In this document: positions 6,306 through 14,999 of the stretch, in pieces
How positions within the stretch are numbered: position 1 is the first letter of the stretch
How the letters are laid out: every line of letters begins with the position of its first letter
Assembly: GCA_028864975.1 (NCBI GenBank)
Contig: JAGWLG010000002.1
Location: 96,001 to 160,000, forward strand
Direction: 5' to 3'
Length of the DNA: 64,000 bases
From: Thermoplasmata archaeon
Lineage (GTDB): Archaea > Thermoplasmatota > Thermoplasmata > Lutacidiplasmatales > UBA184
Notes under the pieces: model-generated
What the model saw: the letters and a program-made list of their open reading frames with translations, nothing else
Told to the model about the DNA's origin: nothing
Database searches by the model: none
Position numbers and translations under genes: made by a program

Positions 6306-8843
6306 ATGAGCGCCAAGGCCACCAAGCCCGCCACCGACGAGAAGGCCGAAGAAGAAGAGACGAAGGTCGAGTTCGAGGACCTTCCCGGGGTGGGGGCCAC
6401 CACCGCGGAGAAGCTCCGCGAAGCGGGCTACGGGGACATGATGGAGCTCGCCGTCGCGTCTCCGGACGACATCGCGGCGGCCGCGGACATCGGCGAAGGC
6501 ATCGCGCAGAAGATCATCGTCGAGGCGCGCAAGCGCGCCAAGGTCGGGGGGTTCGAGAGCGGCACCGATATCCTGGAGCGGAGGAAGAGGATCGGCAAGG
6601 TCACGACGATGTCCAAGAACCTGGACGAGCTCTTGGGGGGAGGCATCGAGACCCAGGCCATCACGGAGGTCTATGGGGCTTTTGGGAGCGGCAAGTGCAC
6701 GCACCCTGGCACGCCAGTCCTTTACTTCAATGACTCGGTGGCCCACCTCGAACCCATCGGGGAGATCTACGCGAAGTACGCCGCCAAGTTCGGAGAGATC
6801 CCCTTCGATGGTGGATGGGCTGTCCCGGTCGACTGCGTTCAGGTGGCGGGACTGACCGAGTCAGGAGTCCAGCGCGTTCGGGCCTCCCATCTCTACCGGG
6901 AGAAGGTCGCTCGGCTGATCCGGATCAAGACCGCACGCGGTCGTACGTTGGAGATCACTCCGCCGCACAAGTTGGTGTCCATCACCACGGAGGGGGTCTC
7001 GTGGGTCCCCGCGGCTAAGCTGGCTCCGGGATGCCCCATCGCTACCCCGCGAACGCTGCAGGCCCGATCCGCCGAGGATCATCCCAACATGGTCGACGAG
7101 GACGACGCCTTCTTCCTAGGTCTCTACGTTTCGGAGGGGGATCCCATCGGGATCACGAACACCGACCTTCGTCTCATCAAGTGGGTGGAGAGCTACATCG
7201 AAGGGAAGTTCGGTCATTCACCCCGGGTTTCGGTCGGGCACGGGCGCCCCCTGCCGGCGTTCCGAGTCCTTCTTCGTAAGCCCGTCCGCACTTTTCTGGG
7301 CGATCTTGCGACTCAGCGATCGGCGACCAAGCGGGTCCCTGCCAGCGTCCTTGGTGGGAGCGATGGCGTGGTGAGGTCCTTCCTCGCCGGATACATCGAA
7401 GGCGACGGATGTATCCAGCCCCTTCACACCGAGGTCGACACCGCGAGCGCCGGTCTGGCCCGAGATGTCGCCTACCTCTTCGCGCGCATCGGCATTCAGT
7501 CGAGCACTCGCGTCCGCCAGGTCAAGGGAAAGCCGTACTGGCGGGTGTCGGTCGTTGGGGAAGACCGCTCGAGGATCCGATCCCTCCCTCTTCGCTTCAA
7601 GCAATGGCCGAGTACCCTGCCCTACACCTCGGCCTATGGGTTTCCGACACCGACCATCGAGGTCCTTCAAAGGATCTACCGTCAGGGTCTTGGTGGCCAC
7701 CGCGGACGGAAGCAGAAGCGCGTTGGAAGGGCGCGGAACCGCAACGACCGTTTCTACCACGTCTTGGTAGAAGAGCGTACCAAATCTGACACCCTTAATG
7801 AGGCGACCTTCCGAGCCATCGCTGAGACCTTCCTCGAGGGGAGGGCAAGGCTCGAGCGGGCGCAGAGGCTGACCACCCGACTGGACCACCTCGACCTGCG
7901 CGAGTTCGCGCGCTTGTTCGACCTGCTGCCGCAGGCGTTCTCTGCCTATGCGGAGAGGGCAGGGATCTCAAGATCCGTGTCTCAGAACTGGCGCCGCCGA
8001 GGCGTCTCCCCGAACCGCGATCTCGAGCCTCTCAAGGCAATCATGACCGAGGACCTCTCGAGAAGGATCTCGATCCTTTCGCAGGGGCTCGCTCAGATGA
8101 AGAACATCCACTCGTTCGCGTGGGATATCATCGTTTCCGTGGAGCACGTCCCGTACGACGGCTTCGTCTACGACCTAACGGTCCCGGAAGGGCACACCTT
8201 CGTCGCCGGCGAAATGCCGACGATCATGCACAACACTCAGCTCGCTTTGCAAGTGTCCTCCTCGATCCAGCTCCCCGTGGATCAAGGTGGACTGGAGGGG
8301 GAGGCGGTCTGGATCGACACCGAGAACACCTTCCGCCCGGAGCGTCTCACCGAGATGGCCAAGGCGGCGGGTTTGGACCCCGCCGAGGCCCTGAAGAAGG
8401 TCCACGTGGCTCACGCCTTCAACGCGAGCCACCAGGAGCTGCTGGTCCCGAAGGCCTTCGAGCTCGCCCGCCAGAAGCCCGTTCGTCTGCTCGTCGTGGA
8501 CTCGCTCACGGCGCATTTTCGAGCCGAGTTCCTGGGGAGAGGCGCGCTCGCCGAACGCCAGCAGCGCCTCAATCGCCACATGCACGAGCTGCTCCGCTTC
8601 GGCGACGTCTTCAACGCGGCGATCATCTGCACGAACCAGGTCTCGTCCCGTCCCGATGTCCTTTTTGGCGACCCCACCGGCCCGATCGGGGGGAACATCG
8701 TCGGCCACACGGCGACGTACCGGGTGTACATGCGGAAGTCGAAGCCCCCGCGCCGCATCGCTCGGCTCGTCGACTCCCCGAACCTTCCCGAAGGAGAGGC
8801 GATCTTCTCCGTCCTGCCCGAAGGGATCCGCGACGCGGGCTGA
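6306..8843 (+). CDS. radA: DNA repair and recombination protein RadA, intein-containing precursor (about 332-aa extein)
   Basis: N-terminal HhH ([14 protein letters not shown]), Walker A GAFGSGK interrupted by an intein and resuming TQLALQ, then [19 protein letters not shown] and GGNIVGH. Confidence 0.96.
6696..8234 (+). mobile_element. intein (513 aa) with LAGLIDADG homing endonuclease in RadA
   Basis: Begins with Cys (TGC 6696) directly after GSGK and ends [23 protein letters not shown] before Thr +1. Internal [10 protein letters not shown] and [10 protein letters not shown] blocks. Confidence 0.95.
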
Positions 8844-8853
8844 CCCCGTTCGA

Positions 8854-10410
8854 TCACGCCCCGAACGAGCGCAAGCGTCGAAGGAGCGCCCCCGTGCCCA
8901 ACGGGGTGCCGCTGGTCTCGTTGACCTGCGCTACCCAGTCCTGGGTGATCCCAGGACGGAACCAGTTCCGGGTCAGCCACGGGGCAACCCGGGGGTTGGG
9001 CCAGGTGTCGCCCCCGATGTCGCGGAGCATCCCTTCCCGCACCTGAGAGGCAAAGAGCCAGGCGAAGAGGTAGCTCTTGGCGTAGAGGCCGTACTGGACC
9101 CAGATCCCATCGCCGAACGAGGCAGGGACCGACGTTGGCAGGTAGCCCTCGTACGCTCGTTGCAGGCGCGCGAACGTCGAGACCAGGTCCCCTGTCGGCC
9201 GACGGTAGAGTTCGAGCTCCTGCTCCACCCAAAGGGCGGTGTACCCCACGGAATCTGGCCATCCCACGGCACGGTCCGCGATGAGGCGATCGATCGAGGC
9301 CCGAGGCAGGCCGGTTCGCGTGGAGAGCCAGGCCGCCTCTCCCGAGATCTCCTCGAAGAGGCCACCGACCCCTTCCGACATGCCGGCGTTCCCGGGGAGC
9401 GTCTCGTACCCGCGCAGGAGGTGCGTGGGGGCCCGCGTCAAGCTCGCGTGGACGGCGTGTCCGAGCTCGTGCATCAGGATCCCATACCAGACCCAGCCGC
9501 CCTGCGGATTCACGACGACCCGGACGTCTTGGGGAATGGTCGGAGCGTAGCACAGGCCCCCCGCACTGATCGCGTGCCGGTCGATGCGAAGGTGGTAGCG
9601 TTCAGGATGGAAGCCCCACCCTCGCAGGGCTCCCATCGCGGCCGAGAGCATCCCTCGTCCAGGGAAGTATCGGTCCACCGCGGGCGGCTTTCGCAGCTCG
9701 AAGGCGCGCGGGAGGTCCCAGGGGTACCAGCCTCGTTCCCCTTTCGCATCCTCGAAATCGTCCCGCACCCTCCGGGCCGCCGGGCGGCCGATGGCCTTCA
9801 GCGAGACGATGAACCGTTCGAGCTGGGCGCGCGAGACCCCCTCTTGGGAGAGCCTCAGTTCGACGAAGGAGGGGAAGCCGAGCTCGTGGGCCCGAGCATT
9901 GCGGAGCTCGGCCAGCTTTCGTATCCCCGGCTCCAGAGTGGCCAGAGAGCGCTGCGATGCCTCCCAGAGCCTCTGGCGTTCCCTTCTCTCTTCCGCCTTC
10001 CGCAGTAGCTCTCCGACACGGTGCAACGGCAGGAGTCGTCCGCGGTAGCGGACCCGAAGACTGGCGTCCCTGCGGAGGAGATCGTTGCGGAGACGGACAA
10101 TCGGGGTGTCGTGCTCGACCTGGACGTCCTCGGCCGCGCGCCGAAGGAGGGCGACGCGTCGCTCGAGCAGACGCGGGAGGGGTCGGGAGAGAGCCTCGTC
10201 CGCGAATCGAACAAGTTCCGGACCTCCGAGCAGGCGGGCCCGCGCCATCTCCCACCGCTCGGGATGAGCTGAACGGCCCATGGCCACGCCCCACTGGGCG
10301 AGGAGGATGCCGCGGTCGAGGGGGGCCAACGCGGACTCGAGCCGGTCCATGAAGCGACCCACCTCGGTCGTGGAAGCGGACCGGCCGGACGGAGGGGAGA
10401 GAGGGACCAT
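8854..10410 (-). CDS. M3-like (gluzincin) oligopeptidase
   Basis: MHELGHAVH HExxH motif with downstream SEGVGGLFEE third ligand, and YAKSYLFA. The start could also be ATG 10350. Confidence 0.8.
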   Translation of the reverse strand: MVPLSPPSGRSASTTEVGRFMDRLESALAPLDRGILLAQWGVAMGRSAHPERWEMARARLLGGPELVRFADEALSRPLPRLLERRVALLRRAAEDVQVEHDTPIVRLRNDLLRRDASLRVRYRGRLLPLHRVGELLRKAEERRERQRLWEASQRSLATLEPGIRKLAELRNARAHELGFPSFVELRLSQEGVSRAQLERFIVSLKAIGRPAARRVRDDFEDAKGERGWYPWDLPRAFELRKPPAVDRYFPGRGMLSAAMGALRGWGFHPERYHLRIDRHAISAGGLCYAPTIPQDVRVVVNPQGGWVWYGILMHELGHAVHASLTRAPTHLLRGYETLPGNAGMSEGVGGLFEEISGEAAWLSTRTGLPRASIDRLIADRAVGWPDSVGYTALWVEQELELYRRPTGDLVSTFARLQRAYEGYLPTSVPASFGDGIWVQYGLYAKSYLFAWLFASQVREGMLRDIGGDTWPNPRVAPWLTRNWFRPGITQDWVAQVNETSGTPLGTGALLRRLRSFGA

Positions 10411-10454: not shown

Positions 10455-10483
10455 CGGCGGTGGGCTAATATCCCCCACCGCCG
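10455..10483. promoter_or_regulatory. perfect 10-bp inverted repeat around an AT-rich core in the divergent peptidase/AIM24 promoter region
   Basis: CGGCGGTGGG-ctaatatcc-CCCACCGCCG. Confidence 0.55.
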
Positions 10484-10507
10484 CTCGCCCACCTCAAGGT
10501 CGCGCTC

Positions 10508-11155
10508 GTGCAGCTGGAGACGCTCAAGGGGATCGTGCCCGCCGTGCTGGCGACGCTCGGACCCCAGGAGGCGGTCTACTGCGAGCATGGCATCATGTTG
10601 TACAAGGACCCCACCGTGGGGGTCGGCCGTAAGACGATCAAGTCCGGCGGCATGTTCGGCGCGCTCAAGCGCGAGACCGTGGGAGGGATCCCCTTCTTCC
10701 TCGCCGAGTTCGTCGGTCCTGGCTCCGTCGCCTTCTCCCGAGATGGGGTGGGCGAGATCCGCGAGATCGAGCTCGCCCCCGGGGAGGTCCTGGACGTGGC
10801 GGAAGGGTCGCTTCTCTGCGCCGAGAACCGCATTCCCTACGACATGTTCTACGTCTCGGGCACGCACCGCCCCGGACGGATGGTGGGGTTCTGGATGGAC
10901 CGGCTCACCGGACCTGGGTGGGTCGCGCTGCACGGCTTCGGGAACATCATCTCCATGTCCCTCGCCCCCGGCGAAAAGATGACCTGCGACTACGGGGCCC
11001 TGCTCTGGAAGAGCGCGAGCGTCCAAGCGAAGTCCCTGAACCTTCCGTTCGGCGGCGGCCTTCTGGGGAAGCTTGAGTCCTACGAGGTCTTGGAGCTCAT
11101 TGGCCCGGGGAAGGTGGCGCTCCAGAGCGTCGACCCGAAGAAGCCGCACAGCTGA
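10508..11155 (+). CDS. AIM24 (TRAP-like fold) family protein, paralogue 1
   Basis: LGPQEAVYCEHGIM, FFLAEFVGPGSVAF, LAPGE and LTGPGWVALHGFGNI, which is the typical AIM24 pattern. GTG start. Confidence 0.88.
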   Translation: MQLETLKGIVPAVLATLGPQEAVYCEHGIMLYKDPTVGVGRKTIKSGGMFGALKRETVGGIPFFLAEFVGPGSVAFSRDGVGEIREIELAPGEVLDVAEGSLLCAENRIPYDMFYVSGTHRPGRMVGFWMDRLTGPGWVALHGFGNIISMSLAPGEKMTCDYGALLWKSASVQAKSLNLPFGGGLLGKLESYEVLELIGPGKVALQSVDPKKPHS

Positions 11156-11187
11156 GGACCCTCCACGAGGAAGCAGGAGAACGAGCC

Positions 11188-11367
11188 ATGCCGATACCGG
11201 AAGAGTTCACGAAGAAGCGGACCGAAGTGACGATCAGCCGTGCGGTGCTCAAGGAGATCAACTGCAAGAGCTGCGGGGCGAAGATCGACCCGGCCAATAT
11301 CAAGGGCGGCTACGCTCGCTGCTCCTACTGCGGCGGAACCTACAACCTCGACGTCCAGGGAGCGTAG
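11188..11367 (+). CDS. small zinc-ribbon protein (59 aa), absent from ORF track
   Basis: MPIPEEFTKKRTEVTISRAVLKEINCKSCGAKIDPANIKGGYARCSYCGGTYNLDVQGA. Two CxxC pairs, AGGAGA RBS upstream, host-like codon usage, and it fills the gap between AIM24 genes. Confidence 0.85.
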   Translation: MPIPEEFTKKRTEVTISRAVLKEINCKSCGAKIDPANIKGGYARCSYCGGTYNLDVQGA

Positions 11368-11379
11368 GGGGGGTCTCTC

Positions 11380-12030
11380 GTGAAGGCCGACACGGTCGGG
11401 GGGATCACCCCTGCGGTCCTGGTCCAGCTGCGGCCCGGCGAGAAGGTCCTCGCGGCCCACGAGATCATGCTCCACATGGACGGGGAGGTCAAGCTCCACC
11501 GCAAGACGCTGAAGCATCTGGGGGTCTCCACGGCCCACCTGATGTCGATGCGGGCCAAAGGGGACTCGGAAGAGAACTACTTCTTCGCCGAGTTCGAAGG
11601 CCCGGGGAACGTCACCTTCTCGCGCGACAAGGCCGGGGAGGTACGGATCCTCCAGCTGGCCCCCGGCCAGGCGATCCGGCTGCGCTCGGGCCATCTCATC
11701 TGCTTCGACGAGACGGTTCGGTACTTCCCCATGGTCGTCGCACGTTGGGTGGTGAAGAAGGGGAACGACCAGGAGACGGAGTACATCTTCGCGGATGAGC
11801 TCACGGGACCTGGTACGGTCGTCTTCCAGTCACACGGGAACATCCTCTCCTTCAACCTTCAGCCGGGGGAGGCCATGCGCACCTCTACCGAGGGGTGGCT
11901 AGCGAGTGCGCCCACCACCCAGGTCAACGTGACGTGGTTCGCCCCACGCATGGGGGGGGTGGGGGTGAATCCCCGGCCGGTCCTTCACCTGGTGGGGCCA
12001 GGCTCCGTCATGGTCCACAGCGGGGTGTAG
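11380..12030 (+). CDS. AIM24 family protein, paralogue 2
   Basis: LRPGEKVLAAHEIM, FFAEFEGPGNVTF and LTGPGTVVFQSHGNI. GTG start. Confidence 0.88.
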   Translation: MKADTVGGITPAVLVQLRPGEKVLAAHEIMLHMDGEVKLHRKTLKHLGVSTAHLMSMRAKGDSEENYFFAEFEGPGNVTFSRDKAGEVRILQLAPGQAIRLRSGHLICFDETVRYFPMVVARWVVKKGNDQETEYIFADELTGPGTVVFQSHGNILSFNLQPGEAMRTSTEGWLASAPTTQVNVTWFAPRMGGVGVNPRPVLHLVGPGSVMVHSGV

Positions 12031-12032
12031 CG

Positions 12033-12689
12033 ATGCAGGTGAACGTCCAAGGGAACTTCGTCCCCGTCGCCCTGGTCCAGCTCAACCCCGGCGAGGAGAT
12101 CTTCTGCGAAGGGGGGCTCATGGTCTACGCCGACCCCTCCATCCAGATGAGCATCCGCCCGTTCACCCAGGGGGGGATGGGCCAGACCCTGCGACGGACC
12201 CTGGTCGGCGGGGTCCCGTTCTGGATGCACGTCTTCCACGGACCGGGGTATGTCGCGTTCAGCCGGTTCGGTCCTGGGGAGATCCGGGTGCAAGAGTTGG
12301 CCCCGGGACAGGTCGTCGACATCGCCGAGCACTCCCTCCTTCTCGCGTCGAACACGGTGCGCTACGACACCTACTACGTGGCCGGGACGGGGCGCATCGG
12401 GAGGATGGTCGGGTTCTGGATGGACCGGCTGACCGGCCCCGGCACGATCGTCTACCACGGCCACGGCGACATCCTGGGATTCGACCTCAAGCCAGGAGAG
12501 TCGATGCAGATCGACCATGGTGGGCTCCTCCGCAAGGATGCTACGGTGCAGATCCGGGCGTTCAACCAGCCTCTGGGCCAGGGGCTGATGGGGCACGCGA
12601 TGAGCTTCGAGGCCCTCCAGGTGGATGGCCCTGGGCGTCTCGAGCTGCAGACCGTGGACCCGACGCACCGTGGGGCGGGGGGCGGTTAG
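12033..12689 (+). CDS. AIM24 family protein, paralogue 3
   Basis: LNPGEEIFCEGGLM, LAPGQVVD and LTGPGTIVYHGHGDI. ATG lies 2 nt after the previous stop. Confidence 0.88.
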   Translation: MQVNVQGNFVPVALVQLNPGEEIFCEGGLMVYADPSIQMSIRPFTQGGMGQTLRRTLVGGVPFWMHVFHGPGYVAFSRFGPGEIRVQELAPGQVVDIAEHSLLLASNTVRYDTYYVAGTGRIGRMVGFWMDRLTGPGTIVYHGHGDILGFDLKPGESMQIDHGGLLRKDATVQIRAFNQPLGQGLMGHAMSFEALQVDGPGRLELQTVDPTHRGAGGG

Positions 12690-12753: not shown

Positions 12754-14277
12754 ATGAGCGGCCCGGTGGTCTTGGATGGCAACCACCTCACACTCTCGGA
12801 CGTGGTGAGCGTCGCGCGCCAAGGACGGCCGGTGGAGATCTCCGCGGAGGCCCGGGCCAGGATGGAGAAGGCCCGGGCCGCAGTCCTCCACATTGTCTCG
12901 GACGGGAGGCCAGTTTACGGGGTGAACACCGGCTTCGGACGCCTATCGGACCGAATCGTTCCCAAGGAACAGCTGCCCGAGCTCCAGCGGAACCTGGTCC
13001 GCTCCCACGCGAGCGGGGTGGGACCCGACCTACCCCGAGAGCTGGTCCGGGCGATGATGCTCCTTCGGGCCAACAGTCTCGCCAAGGGGGTTTCCGGGGT
13101 ACGGGTCGAGGTCGTGGAGACGCTCCTGGCCGCGCTCCACCACGATCTGGTCCCCGCCATCCCGGAGCAGGGCTCGGTCGGGGCCTCCGGGGACCTTGCC
13201 CCGCTCGCTCACCTTGCCTTGGCGTTGATGGGCGAGGGGGAGGTGATCGACGAGCGGGGGCACCGGATGCCCTCCTCCGGGGCCCTTGCGAAGGCGAAGG
13301 TCCCTCCGATCACGCTGGTCGAGAAGGAGGGGATCTCTCTCGTCAATGGAACCTGCCTGATGGCCTCCCAGCTCTCCTTCCTGGTCCATGACGGGGAGGC
13401 GTTGCTCCGAATCTCCGAGCTCGCCGCGGCCGTCTCCTTCGACGCCCTCAAAGGGAACGTTGGCGCCCTCGACCCGCGGCTGCACGAAGCCCGCAACCTC
13501 CCCGCCCAGAGCTCGGTCGCTGCCGAGATGCGCACCCTCCTCTCCGGGAGTTCACTGACCCGGGCCCCCGGCGACTACCAAGGGCAGGACCCCTACGTCC
13601 TCCGCTGCATCCCCCAGGTCCTCGGGGCCGTTCGCCTCGGCCTTTCCTGGGCGCGATCGGTGGCGGAAGGGGAGCTCAACGCGGCCTCGGACAATCCTCT
13701 CGTCTTCGACGGGGAGTTCCTCTCCGGCGGGAACTTCCACGGGCAGCCGCTCGCGCTCGCCCTCGATACCGTAGGCCTCGCCCTATCCTATCTAGGAAGC
13801 TTCAGCGAGCGGCGGACCGCCCGCTTGGTCGACGCGGACCTCTCCCGGGGGCTTTCCCCGTTCCTTTCCGCCTCCCCAGGGTTCTCTTCCGGGTACATGA
13901 TCCCCCCCTACGTGGCGGCGTCGCTGGTCGCGGAGGACCAGGTCCTGGTCCACCCCGCGAGCGCCGCCTCGCTCCCCACGTCGGCGAACCAGGAGGACTT
14001 CAACAGCATGGGTGCGACCGCGGGAAGGAAGGGGCTCCGGCTGCTCGAGAACCTCCGCAGGATCCTCGCGATCGAGCTCATGGTCGGGGTGCAGGCACTA
14101 GAGCAGCGGGGTCCCTCACGTGGCGGGAAGGGGAGCGAGACCGTTCGGGCCGCGGTCCGGACCCGTATCCCCCCCCTCACCGAAGACCGCCCCCCTGCCC
14201 CGGACATCGAGCGGCTCTACGAGGCCCTTCGCGAAGGGTCGTTCCTGGCTGACGTCGAGCGGAGCCTAGGGGCCTAG
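12754..14277 (+). CDS. hutH: histidine ammonia-lyase
   Basis: VYGVNTGFG, GSVGASGDLAPL (MIO-forming ASG), QDPYVLRC, SGGNFHG and NQEDFNSMG. CTTAAG element about 25 nt upstream of ATG 12754. Confidence 0.95.
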   Translation: MSGPVVLDGNHLTLSDVVSVARQGRPVEISAEARARMEKARAAVLHIVSDGRPVYGVNTGFGRLSDRIVPKEQLPELQRNLVRSHASGVGPDLPRELVRAMMLLRANSLAKGVSGVRVEVVETLLAALHHDLVPAIPEQGSVGASGDLAPLAHLALALMGEGEVIDERGHRMPSSGALAKAKVPPITLVEKEGISLVNGTCLMASQLSFLVHDGEALLRISELAAAVSFDALKGNVGALDPRLHEARNLPAQSSVAAEMRTLLSGSSLTRAPGDYQGQDPYVLRCIPQVLGAVRLGLSWARSVAEGELNAASDNPLVFDGEFLSGGNFHGQPLALALDTVGLALSYLGSFSERRTARLVDADLSRGLSPFLSASPGFSSGYMIPPYVAASLVAEDQVLVHPASAASLPTSANQEDFNSMGATAGRKGLRLLENLRRILAIELMVGVQALEQRGPSRGGKGSETVRAAVRTRIPPLTEDRPPAPDIERLYEALREGSFLADVERSLGA

Positions 14278-14999
14278 AGCTCGTTCTGCACCCCGAGCGC
14301 CCTTCCACACCCTCGGCATCGCAGTGCCGACAGAGCGTTATCCCACCCGCAACTCGTGCAGCTGACCGAGATCGCGCCGATGGGGGGCGGGGGGGCACCC
14401 CCGCCCGGCCTTCCGTCGGACGTGCCCCCTCCAAGCGGGCCAGGGAACGTGAGCGGGGGAAGCCTCCGCTGGGCCTCCCGGACCCCCAGGTAGACCTGGA
14501 GAGGTCCCACCAAGAGCGGCAACAGCGTCAACGCGGCACCCATCCGGATCCTCTCGCTGCTGAACCGAACGCCCGCGCGATAGACCCCGACCAGGGTCGC
14601 GGCGTAGCCGGCCAAGAGCACCACCCCTCCCACGAGAAGGGCGCTGGGGGTCGTCCAAAGGATGAGGCCGGTGAGCGCGAGACCGACCACCGAAAGGGGA
14701 GCATAGGCCCAGGGGACCTGGAAGGACGGCTTGTCGAGCTTTCGCAACACGTCGAGGGCGAGGTAGTAGGCGAGGAGGGAGGCAAGGTAGGCGAGGATGG
14801 AGGTGATGGCGACCGAGGTGGAGACGGTGAGGAGACCTGCGGGGCCCCCCAGGAGGGTGACCAGGGAACCGAGGCTCGAGATGAACAGGGACGTGAACGC
14901 GACGAAGAGGAGAACCATCGCCTGGGAAGCCAGGGAGAAGGTCGCCCCCCACCGAAGGAAGTGGAGGGCATCCGTGTCCAGTGGCCGGGTGCTCCACAT
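14274..14999 (-). CDS. membrane protein with C-terminal double zinc ribbon
   Basis: About 5-6 hydrophobic helices, a Gly/Pro linker, then CTSCGWDNALSALRCRGCG. Confidence 0.7.
   Translation of the reverse strand: MWSTRPLDTDALHFLRWGATFSLASQAMVLLFVAFTSLFISSLGSLVTLLGGPAGLLTVSTSVAITSILAYLASLLAYYLALDVLRKLDKPSFQVPWAYAPLSVVGLALTGLILWTTPSALLVGGVVLLAGYAATLVGVYRAGVRFSSERIRMGAALTLLPLLVGPLQVYLGVREAQRRLPPLTFPGPLGGGTSDGRPGGGAPPPPIGAISVSCTSCGWDNALSALRCRGCGRALGVQNEL

What the first reader, a model, noticed from the sequence alone, without database searches (positions are those of the whole stretch)
10455..12689. Operon of three AIM24/TRAP-like paralogues with an embedded 59-aa zinc-ribbon gene: candidate uncharacterised complex
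Seen: three divergent AIM24-family genes in tandem with gaps of 32, 12 and 2 nt. An unannotated CxxC-x16-CxxC microprotein with its own RBS sits between copies 1 and 2, and a palindromic site lies upstream. Known: AIM24 proteins have a TRAP-like beta-sandwich fold and no established biochemical function. Bacillus TRAP is controlled by a roughly 53-aa Zn-binding protein, anti-TRAP. Inference: the three paralogues may form a hetero-oligomeric ring that binds RNA or a small ligand, with the Zn-ribbon as adaptor or antagonist. The anti-TRAP parallel is an analogy, not demonstrated homology. The operon is flanked by a peptidase and hutH, which loosely suggests amino-acid sensing.
Basis: partly seen in the sequence, partly recalled or inferred. 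Interest (0 to 1): 0.72.

Follow-up and report, generated by a model that had tools for sequence, protein, structure and literature searches.

The report
Three AIM24 genes plus zinc-ribbon microprotein
An uncultured acid-soil archaeon carries a tightly packed four-gene unit, three diverged copies of the poorly understood AIM24 protein plus a 59-residue zinc-finger microprotein, and the four are always kept or lost together in its relatives, so they probably build one complex of unknown function.

Summary
Genes A1 (10508-11155), Zn (11188-11367), A2 (11380-12030) and A3 (12033-12689) lie on the + strand with gaps of 32, 12 and 2 nt. All three A proteins pass the Pfam AIM24 cut-off. The microprotein is CxxC-x15-CxxC, not x16.

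The host is a Lutacidiplasmatales-type Thermoplasmata MAG. In its order, 23 genomes carry both the microprotein and three AIM24 genes, 19 carry neither, and none carries only one. In 46 of 47 public loci the four genes sit together, in two gene orders, and no other neighbour is conserved. The peptidase/hutH context is therefore accidental.

The microprotein family is confined to this lineage (3 clusters at 50% identity among 1.84 billion representatives). It evolves under purifying selection and has an invariant N-terminal peptide that AlphaFold leaves disordered. It fails the anti-TRAP motif test.

A2 folds like the AIM24 structures 1PG6 and 1YOX. AIM24 triplicated independently in another Thermoplasmatota family, without a zinc partner.

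Best reading: a heterotrimeric AIM24 ring with the microprotein as a dedicated fourth subunit. No physical evidence was obtainable. This scan had already noted three-paralogue AIM24 operons in bacteria, next to an M48 protease; the zinc microprotein is the new element here.

The parts
10455..10483 (.). Perfect 10-nt inverted repeat (CGGCGGTGGG / CCCACCGCCG) around a 9-nt spacer holding a TATA-like TAATAT (10466-10471), about 40 nt upstream of the A1 start. Probably the promoter region, possibly with a local operator.
   Evidence: Relatives keep an A/T box at the same distance but not the arms. The 6-nt core palindrome is not enriched in the genome: 15 sites against 14 in the control.
10508..11155 (+). 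A1, an AIM24-family paralogue 1 (215 aa, GTG start).
   Evidence: Pfam PF01987 E 2.8e-34. Orthologues are present in all complete loci, and their start codon varies ATG/GTG/TTG at the same position. A1 forms a clade in the tree.
11175..11179 (+). AGGAG Shine-Dalgarno-like motif 8 nt upstream of the microprotein's ATG.
   Evidence: GGAG-like motifs precede the homologous ATG in most related loci.
11188..11367 (+). Zn, a 59-aa zinc-ribbon microprotein of the C(P)XCG type (CKSCG ... CSYCG) with an invariant N-terminal peptide MP(I/V)P(E/D)EF.KKR.E(V/I)T(I/V)S(R/K)A.
   Evidence: 18-sequence alignment with 21 invariant columns. 86 clusters at 90% identity, all 56-111 aa. Only three full-length clusters at 50% identity among 1.84 billion representatives. 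dN/dS is 0.24-0.41. AlphaFold gives the ribbon (residues 23-56) pLDDT 72-84 and residues 1-22 below 50.
11380..12030 (+). A2, AIM24-family paralogue 2 (216 aa, GTG start). It is the most diverged of the three.
   Evidence: Pfam E 6.6e-24. The AlphaFold model is mostly above pLDDT 90. Foldseek finds only 1PG6 and 1YOX at significance, E 5e-9 to 3e-7, TM-score (normalised to target length) 0.63-0.70. The A2 clade has SH-aLRT support 98-99.
12033..12689 (+). A3, AIM24-family paralogue 3 (218 aa, ATG start, 2 nt after the A2 stop).
   Evidence: Pfam E 9.4e-30. phmmer against PDB finds 1YOX (PA3696) at E 1.5e-5. A3 clade support is 94-97.

Best explanation
The four genes encode the subunits of one cytoplasmic complex. 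A1, A2 and A3 take the three positions that identical subunits occupy in the AIM24 homotrimer modelled on the bacterial structures, a ring of nine TRAP-like beta-sandwich repeats. That makes an asymmetric heterotrimer. The zinc-ribbon microprotein is a dedicated fourth subunit or adaptor. Its invariant N-terminal 20 residues, predicted to be disordered, would fold onto the ring (or onto a client), and the C(P)XCG zinc ribbon would supply a second contact surface. Breaking the three-fold symmetry would leave a single site for one microprotein, giving roughly 1:1:1:1 and about 76 kDa. By analogy with the only AIM24 proteins studied (plant PAWH1/2 in the Hrd1 complex, yeast Aim24 with MICOS), the complex more likely acts as a scaffold or stabiliser of another assembly than as an enzyme or an RNA attenuator. 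Shown: gene order, tight spacing, joint inheritance and joint loss, purifying selection, and the AIM24 fold. Inferred: physical association, stoichiometry, the role of the N-terminal peptide, and the scaffold function.
For: (1) Co-linearity: 46 of 47 public Thermoplasmata loci found with the microprotein hold Zn plus three AIM24 genes. The 47th is cut by a contig end.
(2) Spacing: median gaps are 15, 8 and 5 nt in 34 type I loci, with overlaps in type II.
(3) Phyletic pattern within the order: 23 genomes have both Zn and three AIM24 genes, 19 have neither, and none has only one. This count includes the unpublished genome G028.
(4) All four are retained even when the operon is split: in G009 A1 is on another contig, in G014 it is 7 kb away, and in G040 the split is A1-Zn | A2-A3.
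(5) There are two gene orders, A1-Zn-A2-A3 and Zn-A1'-A2'-A3'. Type II forms a monophyletic group inside each of the A1, A2 and A3 clades, so the module diverged as a unit.
(6) Each paralogue forms its own clade, including in the most divergent module (L074). No genome has lost one paralogue.
(7) AIM24 monomers have three TRAP-like repeats, and models built on the 1YOX and 1PG6 templates suggest homotrimers (PMC6677890). 1YOX holds six chains, and A2 folds like both structures.
(8) A second, independent tandem triplication of canonical AIM24 exists in another Thermoplasmatota family. Three copies matches a trimeric assembly.
(9) Zn-ribbon/AIM24 association recurs as natural fusions: the Chlorohelix plasmid protein and P0285, which carries PF01987 plus PF13240.
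(10) The microprotein evolves as slowly as A1 and A3, with dN/dS 0.24-0.41.
Against: There is no direct evidence of a complex. The only modelling possible here was a natural in-frame read-through of Zn into A2. It left the conserved N-terminal peptide at pLDDT below 50, so no docking on A2 alone was predicted. The tool gives no inter-domain error map, and the ring partners A1 and A3 were absent from the model. Distance-matrix correlation did not single out a partner paralogue. No RNA run was listed, so co-transcription is unverified. About 45% of genomes searched in the order lack the whole module, so it is dispensable. That fits an accessory function as well as a core scaffold.
Confidence: 0.55

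Rival explanations
1. TRAP/anti-TRAP-like logic. The AIM24 ring binds RNA or a small ligand, and the zinc microprotein is an antagonist that masks the binding surface.
For: Each AIM24 repeat resembles the TRAP subunit (PMC6677890). Anti-TRAP is also a roughly 53-residue zinc protein (PMC2896485). The microprotein is basic (pI 8.8) with an invariant KKR.
Against: The microprotein lacks both CXXCXGXG motifs (it has CKSCGAKI and CSYCGGTY). It has no predicted C-terminal helix and no profile match to anti-TRAP in Pfam or PDB. A1 and A3 are acidic (pI 6.1 and 6.0) and A2 is neutral, which is not the profile of an RNA-binding ring. An antagonist would be expected to be regulated separately, not encoded inside the operon at apparent 1:1 dosage. 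No tryptophan or amino-acid genes are conserved nearby.
Confidence: 0.1
2. Three separate homotrimers that are only co-regulated. Each paralogue forms its own ring with its own client, and the microprotein serves one of them or something else.
For: Published modelling on the two solved AIM24 structures points to homotrimers (PMC6677890). Nothing here demonstrates hetero-assembly. The Zn gene sits next to different paralogues in the two gene orders.
Against: No genome keeps one or two paralogues: all 23 carriers have all three plus Zn. Independent homo-oligomers would be expected to be lost piecemeal. Independent triplications to exactly three copies fit subunit specialisation within a trimer.
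Confidence: 0.15
3. An accessory conflict or stress module, such as a defence or toxin-antidote type system, rather than a housekeeping scaffold.
For: Distribution is patchy within genera (g4 2 of 8, g6 0 of 8, g5 7 of 8). The chromosomal position varies even within a genus. The second copy in this genome is decaying. The nearest outgroup AIM24 proteins found are single genes on bacterial plasmids beside IS elements, an integrase and partition genes.
Against: The A proteins give no match in PADLOC or PHROGs, and the microprotein gives only weak zinc-ribbon matches. The flanks of 31 loci are ordinary housekeeping genes, with no integrase, transposase or defence family among the 25 families listed, which are those matching the most proteins. 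No enzymatic or pore-forming effector domain is present.
Confidence: 0.1
4. The microprotein is the operon's own DNA-binding regulator acting at the upstream palindrome, not a structural partner.
For: It is a basic small zinc protein, and a perfect 10-nt inverted repeat straddles the TATA-like box.
Against: The palindrome arms are not conserved in relatives, while the microprotein's N-terminus is invariant. The core half-sites are not enriched in the genome. In type II operons the upstream region is different again.
Confidence: 0.07

Closest known systems
Single-copy bacterial AIM24 proteins with solved structures: PA3696 (PDB 1YOX) and SPyM3_0169 (PDB 1PG6)
   Same: Same Pfam family and same fold of three TRAP-like beta-sandwich repeats. 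They are the only significant Foldseek hits for A2, and there is a sequence hit for A3. Function is unknown for both (PMC6677890).
   Different: Those are one gene per genome and are modelled as homotrimers. Here there are three specialised paralogues plus a zinc microprotein. The paralogues score far below the TIGR00266 cut-off (29-35 bits against 96.6). They also end right after the AIM24 domain match, whereas the canonical proteins P0285 and P0286 run on for some 30-45 more residues.
TRAP (MtrB) and anti-TRAP (RtpA) of Bacillus
   Same: The AIM24 repeat resembles the TRAP subunit, and a small zinc protein is encoded with a ring-forming beta protein.
   Different: No sequence relationship of the microprotein to anti-TRAP: CXXCXGXG x2 is absent and there are no profile hits. 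TRAP is an 11-mer of single-repeat subunits that binds tryptophan and RNA. No such context is conserved here.
Eukaryotic AIM24 proteins: plant PAWH1/2 (Hrd1 ERAD complex) and yeast Aim24 (MICOS)
   Same: AIM24 domain. In those systems it acts as a non-enzymatic partner that stabilises another complex (PMC6677890, PMC3975624). This is the functional analogy adopted here.
   Different: Those proteins are membrane-attached through C-terminal helices or import signals. They are single or duplicated genes and have no zinc microprotein. The archaeal proteins have no extension beyond the AIM24 domain in which a membrane anchor could lie; transmembrane segments were not predicted here.
Bacterial M48 protease + three-AIM24 cassette
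   Same: Three diverged AIM24 paralogues in a fixed-order operon with one extra non-AIM24 gene.
   Different: The fourth gene there is a membrane zinc protease. Here it is a 59-aa zinc ribbon, and no protease is conserved nearby. Whether the paralogues correspond one-to-one could not be tested.
Canonical AIM24 triplet of another Thermoplasmatota family (loci L092-L094)
   Same: Three tandem, translationally coupled AIM24 genes with orthologous subclades p1, p2 and p3.
   Different: It is an independent triplication nested inside the canonical clade. No zinc-ribbon ORF lies within about 2-3 kb.
C(P)XCG zinc-finger micro-proteins of Haloferax volcanii (e.g. HVO_0758, HVO_2753)
   Same: Under 70 aa, with two C(P)XCG motifs predicted to hold one zinc (PMC11241148, PMC10716476).
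   Different: No detectable sequence relationship beyond the motifs. None of those is reported as an obligate neighbour of AIM24 genes; that is my reading of the abstracts only.

Membership tests
AIM24 (Pfam PF01987) | Score above the Pfam gathering cut-off over the full domain | tested here: met
   A1 119.1, A2 85.2 and A3 104.3 bits against 25.7, covering profile positions 2-9 to 204 of 205.
AIM24 (Pfam PF01987) | Fold of three TRAP-like beta-sandwich repeats, as in 1PG6 and 1YOX | tested here: met
   The A2 model is mostly above pLDDT 90. Foldseek to 1PG6 gives E 4.6e-9 and to the 1YOX chains E 3e-8 to 3e-7, with probability 1.0. Tested for A2 only; A3 is linked to 1YOX by sequence.
AIM24 (Pfam PF01987) | Trimeric ring assembly | not testable with these tools
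   No multimer modelling or coordinates were available. The published models are homotrimers (PMC6677890).
TIGR00266 (canonical AIM24 equivalog) | Score at or above the curated cut-off of 96.6 bits | tested here: not met
   31.7, 28.7 and 35.3 bits. In the tree the three paralogues lie outside the canonical clade.
TRAP (MtrB) | Single-repeat subunit of about 75 aa matching the TRAP profile | tested here: not met
   The Pfam scan at E <= 0.01 returned only AIM24. The subunits are three-repeat proteins of 215-218 aa.
TRAP (MtrB) | Tryptophan-activated binding of (G/U)AG repeat RNA | not testable with these tools
   This needs biochemistry. No trp or amino-acid genes are conserved nearby.
Anti-TRAP (RtpA) | Two DnaJ-like CXXCXGXG zinc motifs (PMC2896485) | tested here: not met
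   The motifs are CKSCGAKI and CSYCGGTY. Neither has Gly at both required positions.
Anti-TRAP (RtpA) | Profile or sequence similarity to anti-TRAP, and a C-terminal trimerising helix | tested here: not met
   There is no anti-TRAP family among the Pfam hits at E <= 0.01 and no anti-TRAP chain among 29 PDB profile hits at E <= 10. The model shows short strands and no C-terminal helix.
C(P)XCG zinc-finger micro-proteins (archaeal class, defined by motif) | 70 aa or fewer, with two C(P)XCG motifs | tested here: met
   59 aa with CKSCG (26-30) and CSYCG (45-49). C26, C29, G30, C45, C48 and G49 are invariant in 18 sequences.
C(P)XCG zinc-finger micro-proteins (archaeal class, defined by motif) | Zinc actually bound | not testable with these tools
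   PMC11241148 reports that several motif-bearing proteins do not bind zinc.
Bacterial M48 protease + 3xAIM24 cassette (earlier scan notes) | Adjacent M48 membrane protease gene | tested here: not met
   No neighbour is conserved across 47 loci. No peptidase M48 is among the 25 families listed for the flanks. The window's neighbour is an M3-like peptidase that was not found in five relatives.
Bacterial M48 protease + 3xAIM24 cassette (earlier scan notes) | One-to-one orthology of the three paralogues with the bacterial ones | not tested

The most novel reading that the evidence does not exclude
A homotrimeric AIM24 ring has been converted into an asymmetric A1-A2-A3 heterotrimer. Its single unique site is read by a lineage-specific zinc microprotein through an invariant disordered N-terminal peptide. 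This would be a previously undescribed four-subunit archaeal scaffold. Together with the independent triplications elsewhere, it would mean that AIM24 proteins in general work as trimeric platforms that recruit small or membrane-bound partners. The microprotein would then be the first defined prokaryotic AIM24 ligand.
Probability: 0.35. Interest if true: 0.62.

Novelty: new variant of a known kind. Interest (0 to 1): 0.5.

Why it matters
[quoted passage not shown] According to PMC6677890, nothing was known about the physiological function of any bacterial member, and the literature searches here turned up no study of a prokaryotic AIM24 function. A strictly co-inherited, tiny and easily tagged partner protein gives a concrete experimental handle: co-expression, pull-down, and a structure of a complex of about 76 kDa. 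Recurrent triplication to exactly three genes is genetic support for the trimer model. If the complex is real, it would also be a clean example of a microprotein that is an obligate subunit rather than a free-standing regulator.

Tried and rejected
- Single-sequence AlphaFold of A1 gave pLDDT 32 and was uninformative.
- Block alignments for the Zn-A2 read-through model were misaligned twice by MAFFT (A5 and A6) before a usable one (A8).
- The read-through model gave no evidence that the microprotein docks on A2.
- The mirror-tree and partial-correlation analysis of Zn against A1, A2 and A3 distances was inconsistent between subsets and is not used.
- The third homologue search was saturated by Thermoplasmata, so no bacterial triplet sequences were obtained.
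- Protein-atlas look-ups only repeated 'AIM24' and generic zinc-ribbon families.
- Sequencing runs: no RNA holder was listed. The DNA holders are mine-drainage and soil metagenomes that may be the source samples.
- PADLOC and PHROGs gave nothing for the AIM24 proteins.
- Genome-wide search for the palindrome core found no enrichment.
- A 'PIPE' resemblance between the microprotein N-terminus and the Nostoc AIM24 N-terminus was not shared by the other outgroup proteins and was dropped.
- Generic zinc-ribbon hits of the microprotein profile carry no AIM24 domain among the 25 families listed.
Full report
**What is in the sequence**

Four + strand ORFs lie head to tail. A1 is 10508-11155 (215 aa, GTG). 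Zn is 11188-11367 (59 aa, ATG). A2 is 11380-12030 (216 aa, GTG). A3 is 12033-12689 (218 aa, ATG). The gaps are 32, 12 and 2 nt.

A1, A2 and A3 match Pfam AIM24 at 119, 85 and 104 bits against a cut-off of 25.7. They score far below the cut-off of the canonical TIGR00266 equivalog: 29-35 bits against 96.6. A1 is 38% identical to A2 and 51% to A3.

The microprotein reads MPIPEEFTKKRTEVTISRAVLKEINCKSCGAKIDPANIKGGYARCSYCGGTYNLDVQGA. Its cysteines are C26, C29, C45 and C48, so the spacing is x15, not x16. AGGAG lies 8 nt upstream of its ATG.

Upstream of A1 there is a perfect 10-nt inverted repeat at 10455-10483 around a TAATAT box. Arms this long occur in 0.4% of shuffles of the intergenic region and in 0.6% of comparable windows of the 64-kb window.

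**Organism and second copy**

Record titles of the closest public loci name Thermoplasmata MAGs, including Candidatus Lutacidiplasmatales and Lutacidiplasma silvani. DNA holders of the stretch are mine-drainage and soil metagenomes.

The window is contig C59 of a 3.6-Mb, 124-contig MAG that is 89.6% complete. The same genome holds a second AIM24 triplet on contig C121. There the microprotein gene lies upstream of the first AIM24 gene and is dead: ATG has become ATC, there is a frameshift, and the second CxxC has lost a Cys to Trp. The first AIM24 gene has CTG where relatives have ATG.

**Conservation of the unit**

The microprotein is found at 50-81% identity in 23 of 60 related genomes. In every fetched locus it lies with three AIM24 genes.

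A scan of one genome per species (185,579 species) with the microprotein's N-terminal patterns returned 47 loci, all titled Thermoplasmata or Thermoplasmatota apart from one titled Methanobacteriota archaeon and one simply 'bacterium'. Of these, 46 hold Zn plus three AIM24 genes, and the last is cut by a contig end.

Two gene orders exist: type I is A1-Zn-A2-A3, as in the window, and type II is Zn-A1'-A2'-A3'. Median gaps are 15, 8 and 5 nt in 34 type I loci, and type II loci have 4-nt overlaps.

No other gene is conserved next to the module: the largest other cluster covers 8 of 47 loci. Pfam families in the flanks of 31 loci are ordinary housekeeping ones such as aconitase, PGK, a tRNA synthetase, FtsZ/tubulin and O6-methylguanine methyltransferase. 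No integrase, transposase or defence family is among the 25 families listed.

The window's own neighbours are not conserved. hutH is about 55 kb from the module in two congeneric genomes, and the M3-like peptidase was not found in five relatives.

**Phyletic pattern**

Searches cover the same 60 relatives. Within the order, 23 genomes have both the microprotein (E < 1e-19) and AIM24 genes, 19 have neither, and none has just one. Of the 23, 21 have three AIM24 matches. G014 has one match because the microprotein sits at a contig end. G019 has three plus a fragment.

These genomes are related and incomplete, and the count includes the unpublished genome G028. G028 also contributes row L025 to alignment A2. 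The conclusion does not depend on it.

Presence is patchy within genera (g4 2 of 8, g5 7 of 8, g6 0 of 8). This implies repeated loss or gain of the whole set.

Where the operon is broken, all four genes are still present. In G009, A1 is on another contig. In G014, A1 is 7 kb away. In G040, the split is A1-Zn on one contig and A2-A3 on another.

Other families of the class carry one canonical AIM24 gene (Pfam E 1e-44 to 1e-76) and no microprotein.

**The microprotein family**

A word-indexed search of 5.8 billion proteins found 86 clusters. All but one weak hit are 56-102 aa and, where named, come from Thermoplasmata. They are labelled hypothetical, or misnamed L37ae, RpoP or Elf1, and none has a Pfam domain.

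A full HMMER pass over 1.84 billion representatives found only three full-length clusters at 50% identity. Every other hit matches only the generic ribbon, positions about 20-56. Among 75 of those other hits, AIM24 is not among the 25 families listed, which are those matching the most proteins. The family is therefore lineage-restricted and never fused.

Twenty-one columns are invariant in 18 sequences. Twelve of them lie in residues 1-19: M1, P2, P4, E6, F7, K9, K10, R11, E13, T15, S17 and A19. dN/dS against 13 relatives is 0.24-0.41. The microprotein diverges as slowly as A1 and A3.

The two CxxCG motifs place it in the C(P)XCG class of archaeal zinc-finger micro-proteins (PMC11241148).

It does not meet the anti-TRAP definition. 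Anti-TRAP has two CXXCXGXG motifs (PMC2896485), whereas here the motifs are CKSCGAKI and CSYCGGTY. No anti-TRAP profile or chain appears in the Pfam or PDB searches.

**Structure**

Zn and A2 happen to be in the same frame, separated by one TAG and four codons. I folded that natural read-through (P0407). The alignment combined paired read-through rows from nine other loci with Zn-only and A2-only rows (A8).

The A2 part is confident (blocks mostly above pLDDT 90) and all-beta. The ribbon, residues 23-56, scores 72-84. Residues 1-22 and the linker score below 50.

Foldseek against the PDB finds only 1PG6 and the six chains of 1YOX at significance. A3 also finds 1YOX by sequence.

Lin et al. describe these structures as three TRAP-like beta-sandwich repeats per monomer, and models built on them as flat homotrimeric rings. 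They also state that nothing is known about the function of bacterial AIM24 proteins (PMC6677890).

The model gives no evidence that the microprotein docks on A2 alone. This is weak negative evidence, because A1 and A3 were absent and no inter-domain error map is returned.

**Evolution of the paralogues**

A tree of 100 AIM24 sequences gives (canonical clade), ((bacterial plasmid singletons), (A2, (A1, A3))). This is a quick IQ-TREE search under LG+G4 with SH-aLRT support. The three-paralogue clade has support 87, A2 has 99 and A3 has 97. A1 and A3 are sisters (92). Most A1 sequences form one group (90), while L074's A1 is left unresolved beside it and A3. Type II sequences form monophyletic groups inside each paralogue clade, with support 100, 100 and 97.

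The triplication therefore predates the diversification of the order. The most divergent module, L074, already has all three. The type II module diverged as a whole.

The nearest outgroup sampled consists of single AIM24 genes on plasmids of Chlorohelix, Nostoc, Mycolicibacterium and Burkholderia. The Chlorohelix protein carries an N-terminal zinc ribbon fused through a Pro/Gly linker. A metagenomic canonical AIM24, P0285, does too.

A survey of 250 Thermoplasmatota genomes shows mostly single canonical genes. One other family (f41) has three tandem, translationally coupled canonical AIM24 genes. These form their own clade (support 92) with three orthologous subclades inside the canonical clade (support 100). 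That is an independent triplication. No zinc-ribbon ORF lies nearby.

**Interpretation**

Several lines point to an obligate heteromer, most simply an A1-A2-A3 heterotrimeric ring with the microprotein as a fourth subunit:
- strict joint inheritance of the four genes;
- retention of all four when they are unlinked;
- co-divergence of the two module types;
- absence of any genome with a partial set;
- repeated evolution of exactly three copies of a protein that published models show as a trimer.

An invariant but structurally unconfident N-terminal peptide is what one expects of a segment that folds on binding. I put this reading at about 0.55.

What the complex does remains inferred. The only characterised AIM24 proteins act as stabilising partners of other complexes (PMC6677890, PMC3975624). 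I therefore favour a scaffold role over a TRAP-like RNA or ligand switch (about 0.1), independent homotrimers (about 0.15), an accessory conflict module (about 0.1), or a role for the microprotein as operon regulator at the palindrome (about 0.07).

Against the regulator idea, the arms of the palindrome are not conserved in relatives, while a TATA-like A/T box at about the same distance upstream of the start is. The palindrome core is also not enriched in the genome (15 sites against 14 in the control).

**Relation to earlier notes of this scan**

Earlier agents reported three-paralogue AIM24 operons next to an M48 membrane protease in many bacterial phyla, and a zinc-ribbon 'handle' attached to AIM24 in a Geobacter-type island. 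I could not fetch those sequences, so orthology with A1, A2 and A3 is untested. The M48 neighbour is not present here.

The new elements in this report are:
- the lineage-specific microprotein as an obligate fourth gene;
- the two gene orders;
- the decaying second copy;
- an independent archaeal triplication.

**Limits**

There is no expression data, because no RNA holder was listed. The genomes are MAGs, so absences are 'not found in those searched'.

Noticed in passing
L007 4687-6935 (own genome, contig C121:108686-110934): A second, type II module (Zn'-A1'-A2'-A3') in the same genome is decaying. In the microprotein gene ATG has become ATC, there is a frameshift and a Cys has changed to Trp. 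A1' has CTG at the start position. A2' and A3' are still open. This is the only genome searched that holds both module types.
   Followed up: yes
L092 3383-5338, L093 3455-5479, L094 3184-5145: Another Thermoplasmatota family (f41, genomes of 1.0-1.4 Mb) has an independent tandem triplet of canonical, high-scoring AIM24 genes, coupled by a 1-nt gap or overlap, with no zinc-ribbon ORF nearby.
   Followed up: yes
L075 4761-5636 (Candidatus Chlorohelix allophototropha plasmid, NZ_CP128401.1): A plasmid-borne AIM24 protein, the closest bacterial relative of A3 found (33% identity), carries an N-terminal CxxC...CxC zinc ribbon joined by a Pro/Gly-rich linker. The metagenomic protein P0285 (PF01987 plus PF13240) has the same layout.
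   Followed up: partly
window 8854-10410 (-): An M3-like HExxH peptidase lies divergently upstream of the module (Pfam Peptidase_M3, E 4.8e-8, N-terminal part only). It was not found at E <= 1e-20 in five related genomes, so it looks like a strain-specific accessory gene.
   Followed up: partly
window 14274-14999 (-): A multi-pass membrane protein ends in a cytoplasmic CxxC-x12-CxxC zinc ribbon (CTSCGWDNALSALRCRGCG). The microprotein query also gave weak ribbon-only matches inside open frames of about 345 aa in many relatives.
   Followed up: no
window 6306-8843 (+): The RadA recombinase gene is interrupted by a large intein (845-aa ORF). Other readers of this scan have already noted it.
   Followed up: no
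window 11365-11379 and loci L028, L029, L031, L036, L038, L040, L042, L051, L056, L062, L072: Zn and A2 are in the same reading frame, separated by one stop codon and a few codons, in the window and in 11 of the public type I loci. That is about the one-third expected by chance, so it is probably not programmed read-through.
   Followed up: partly
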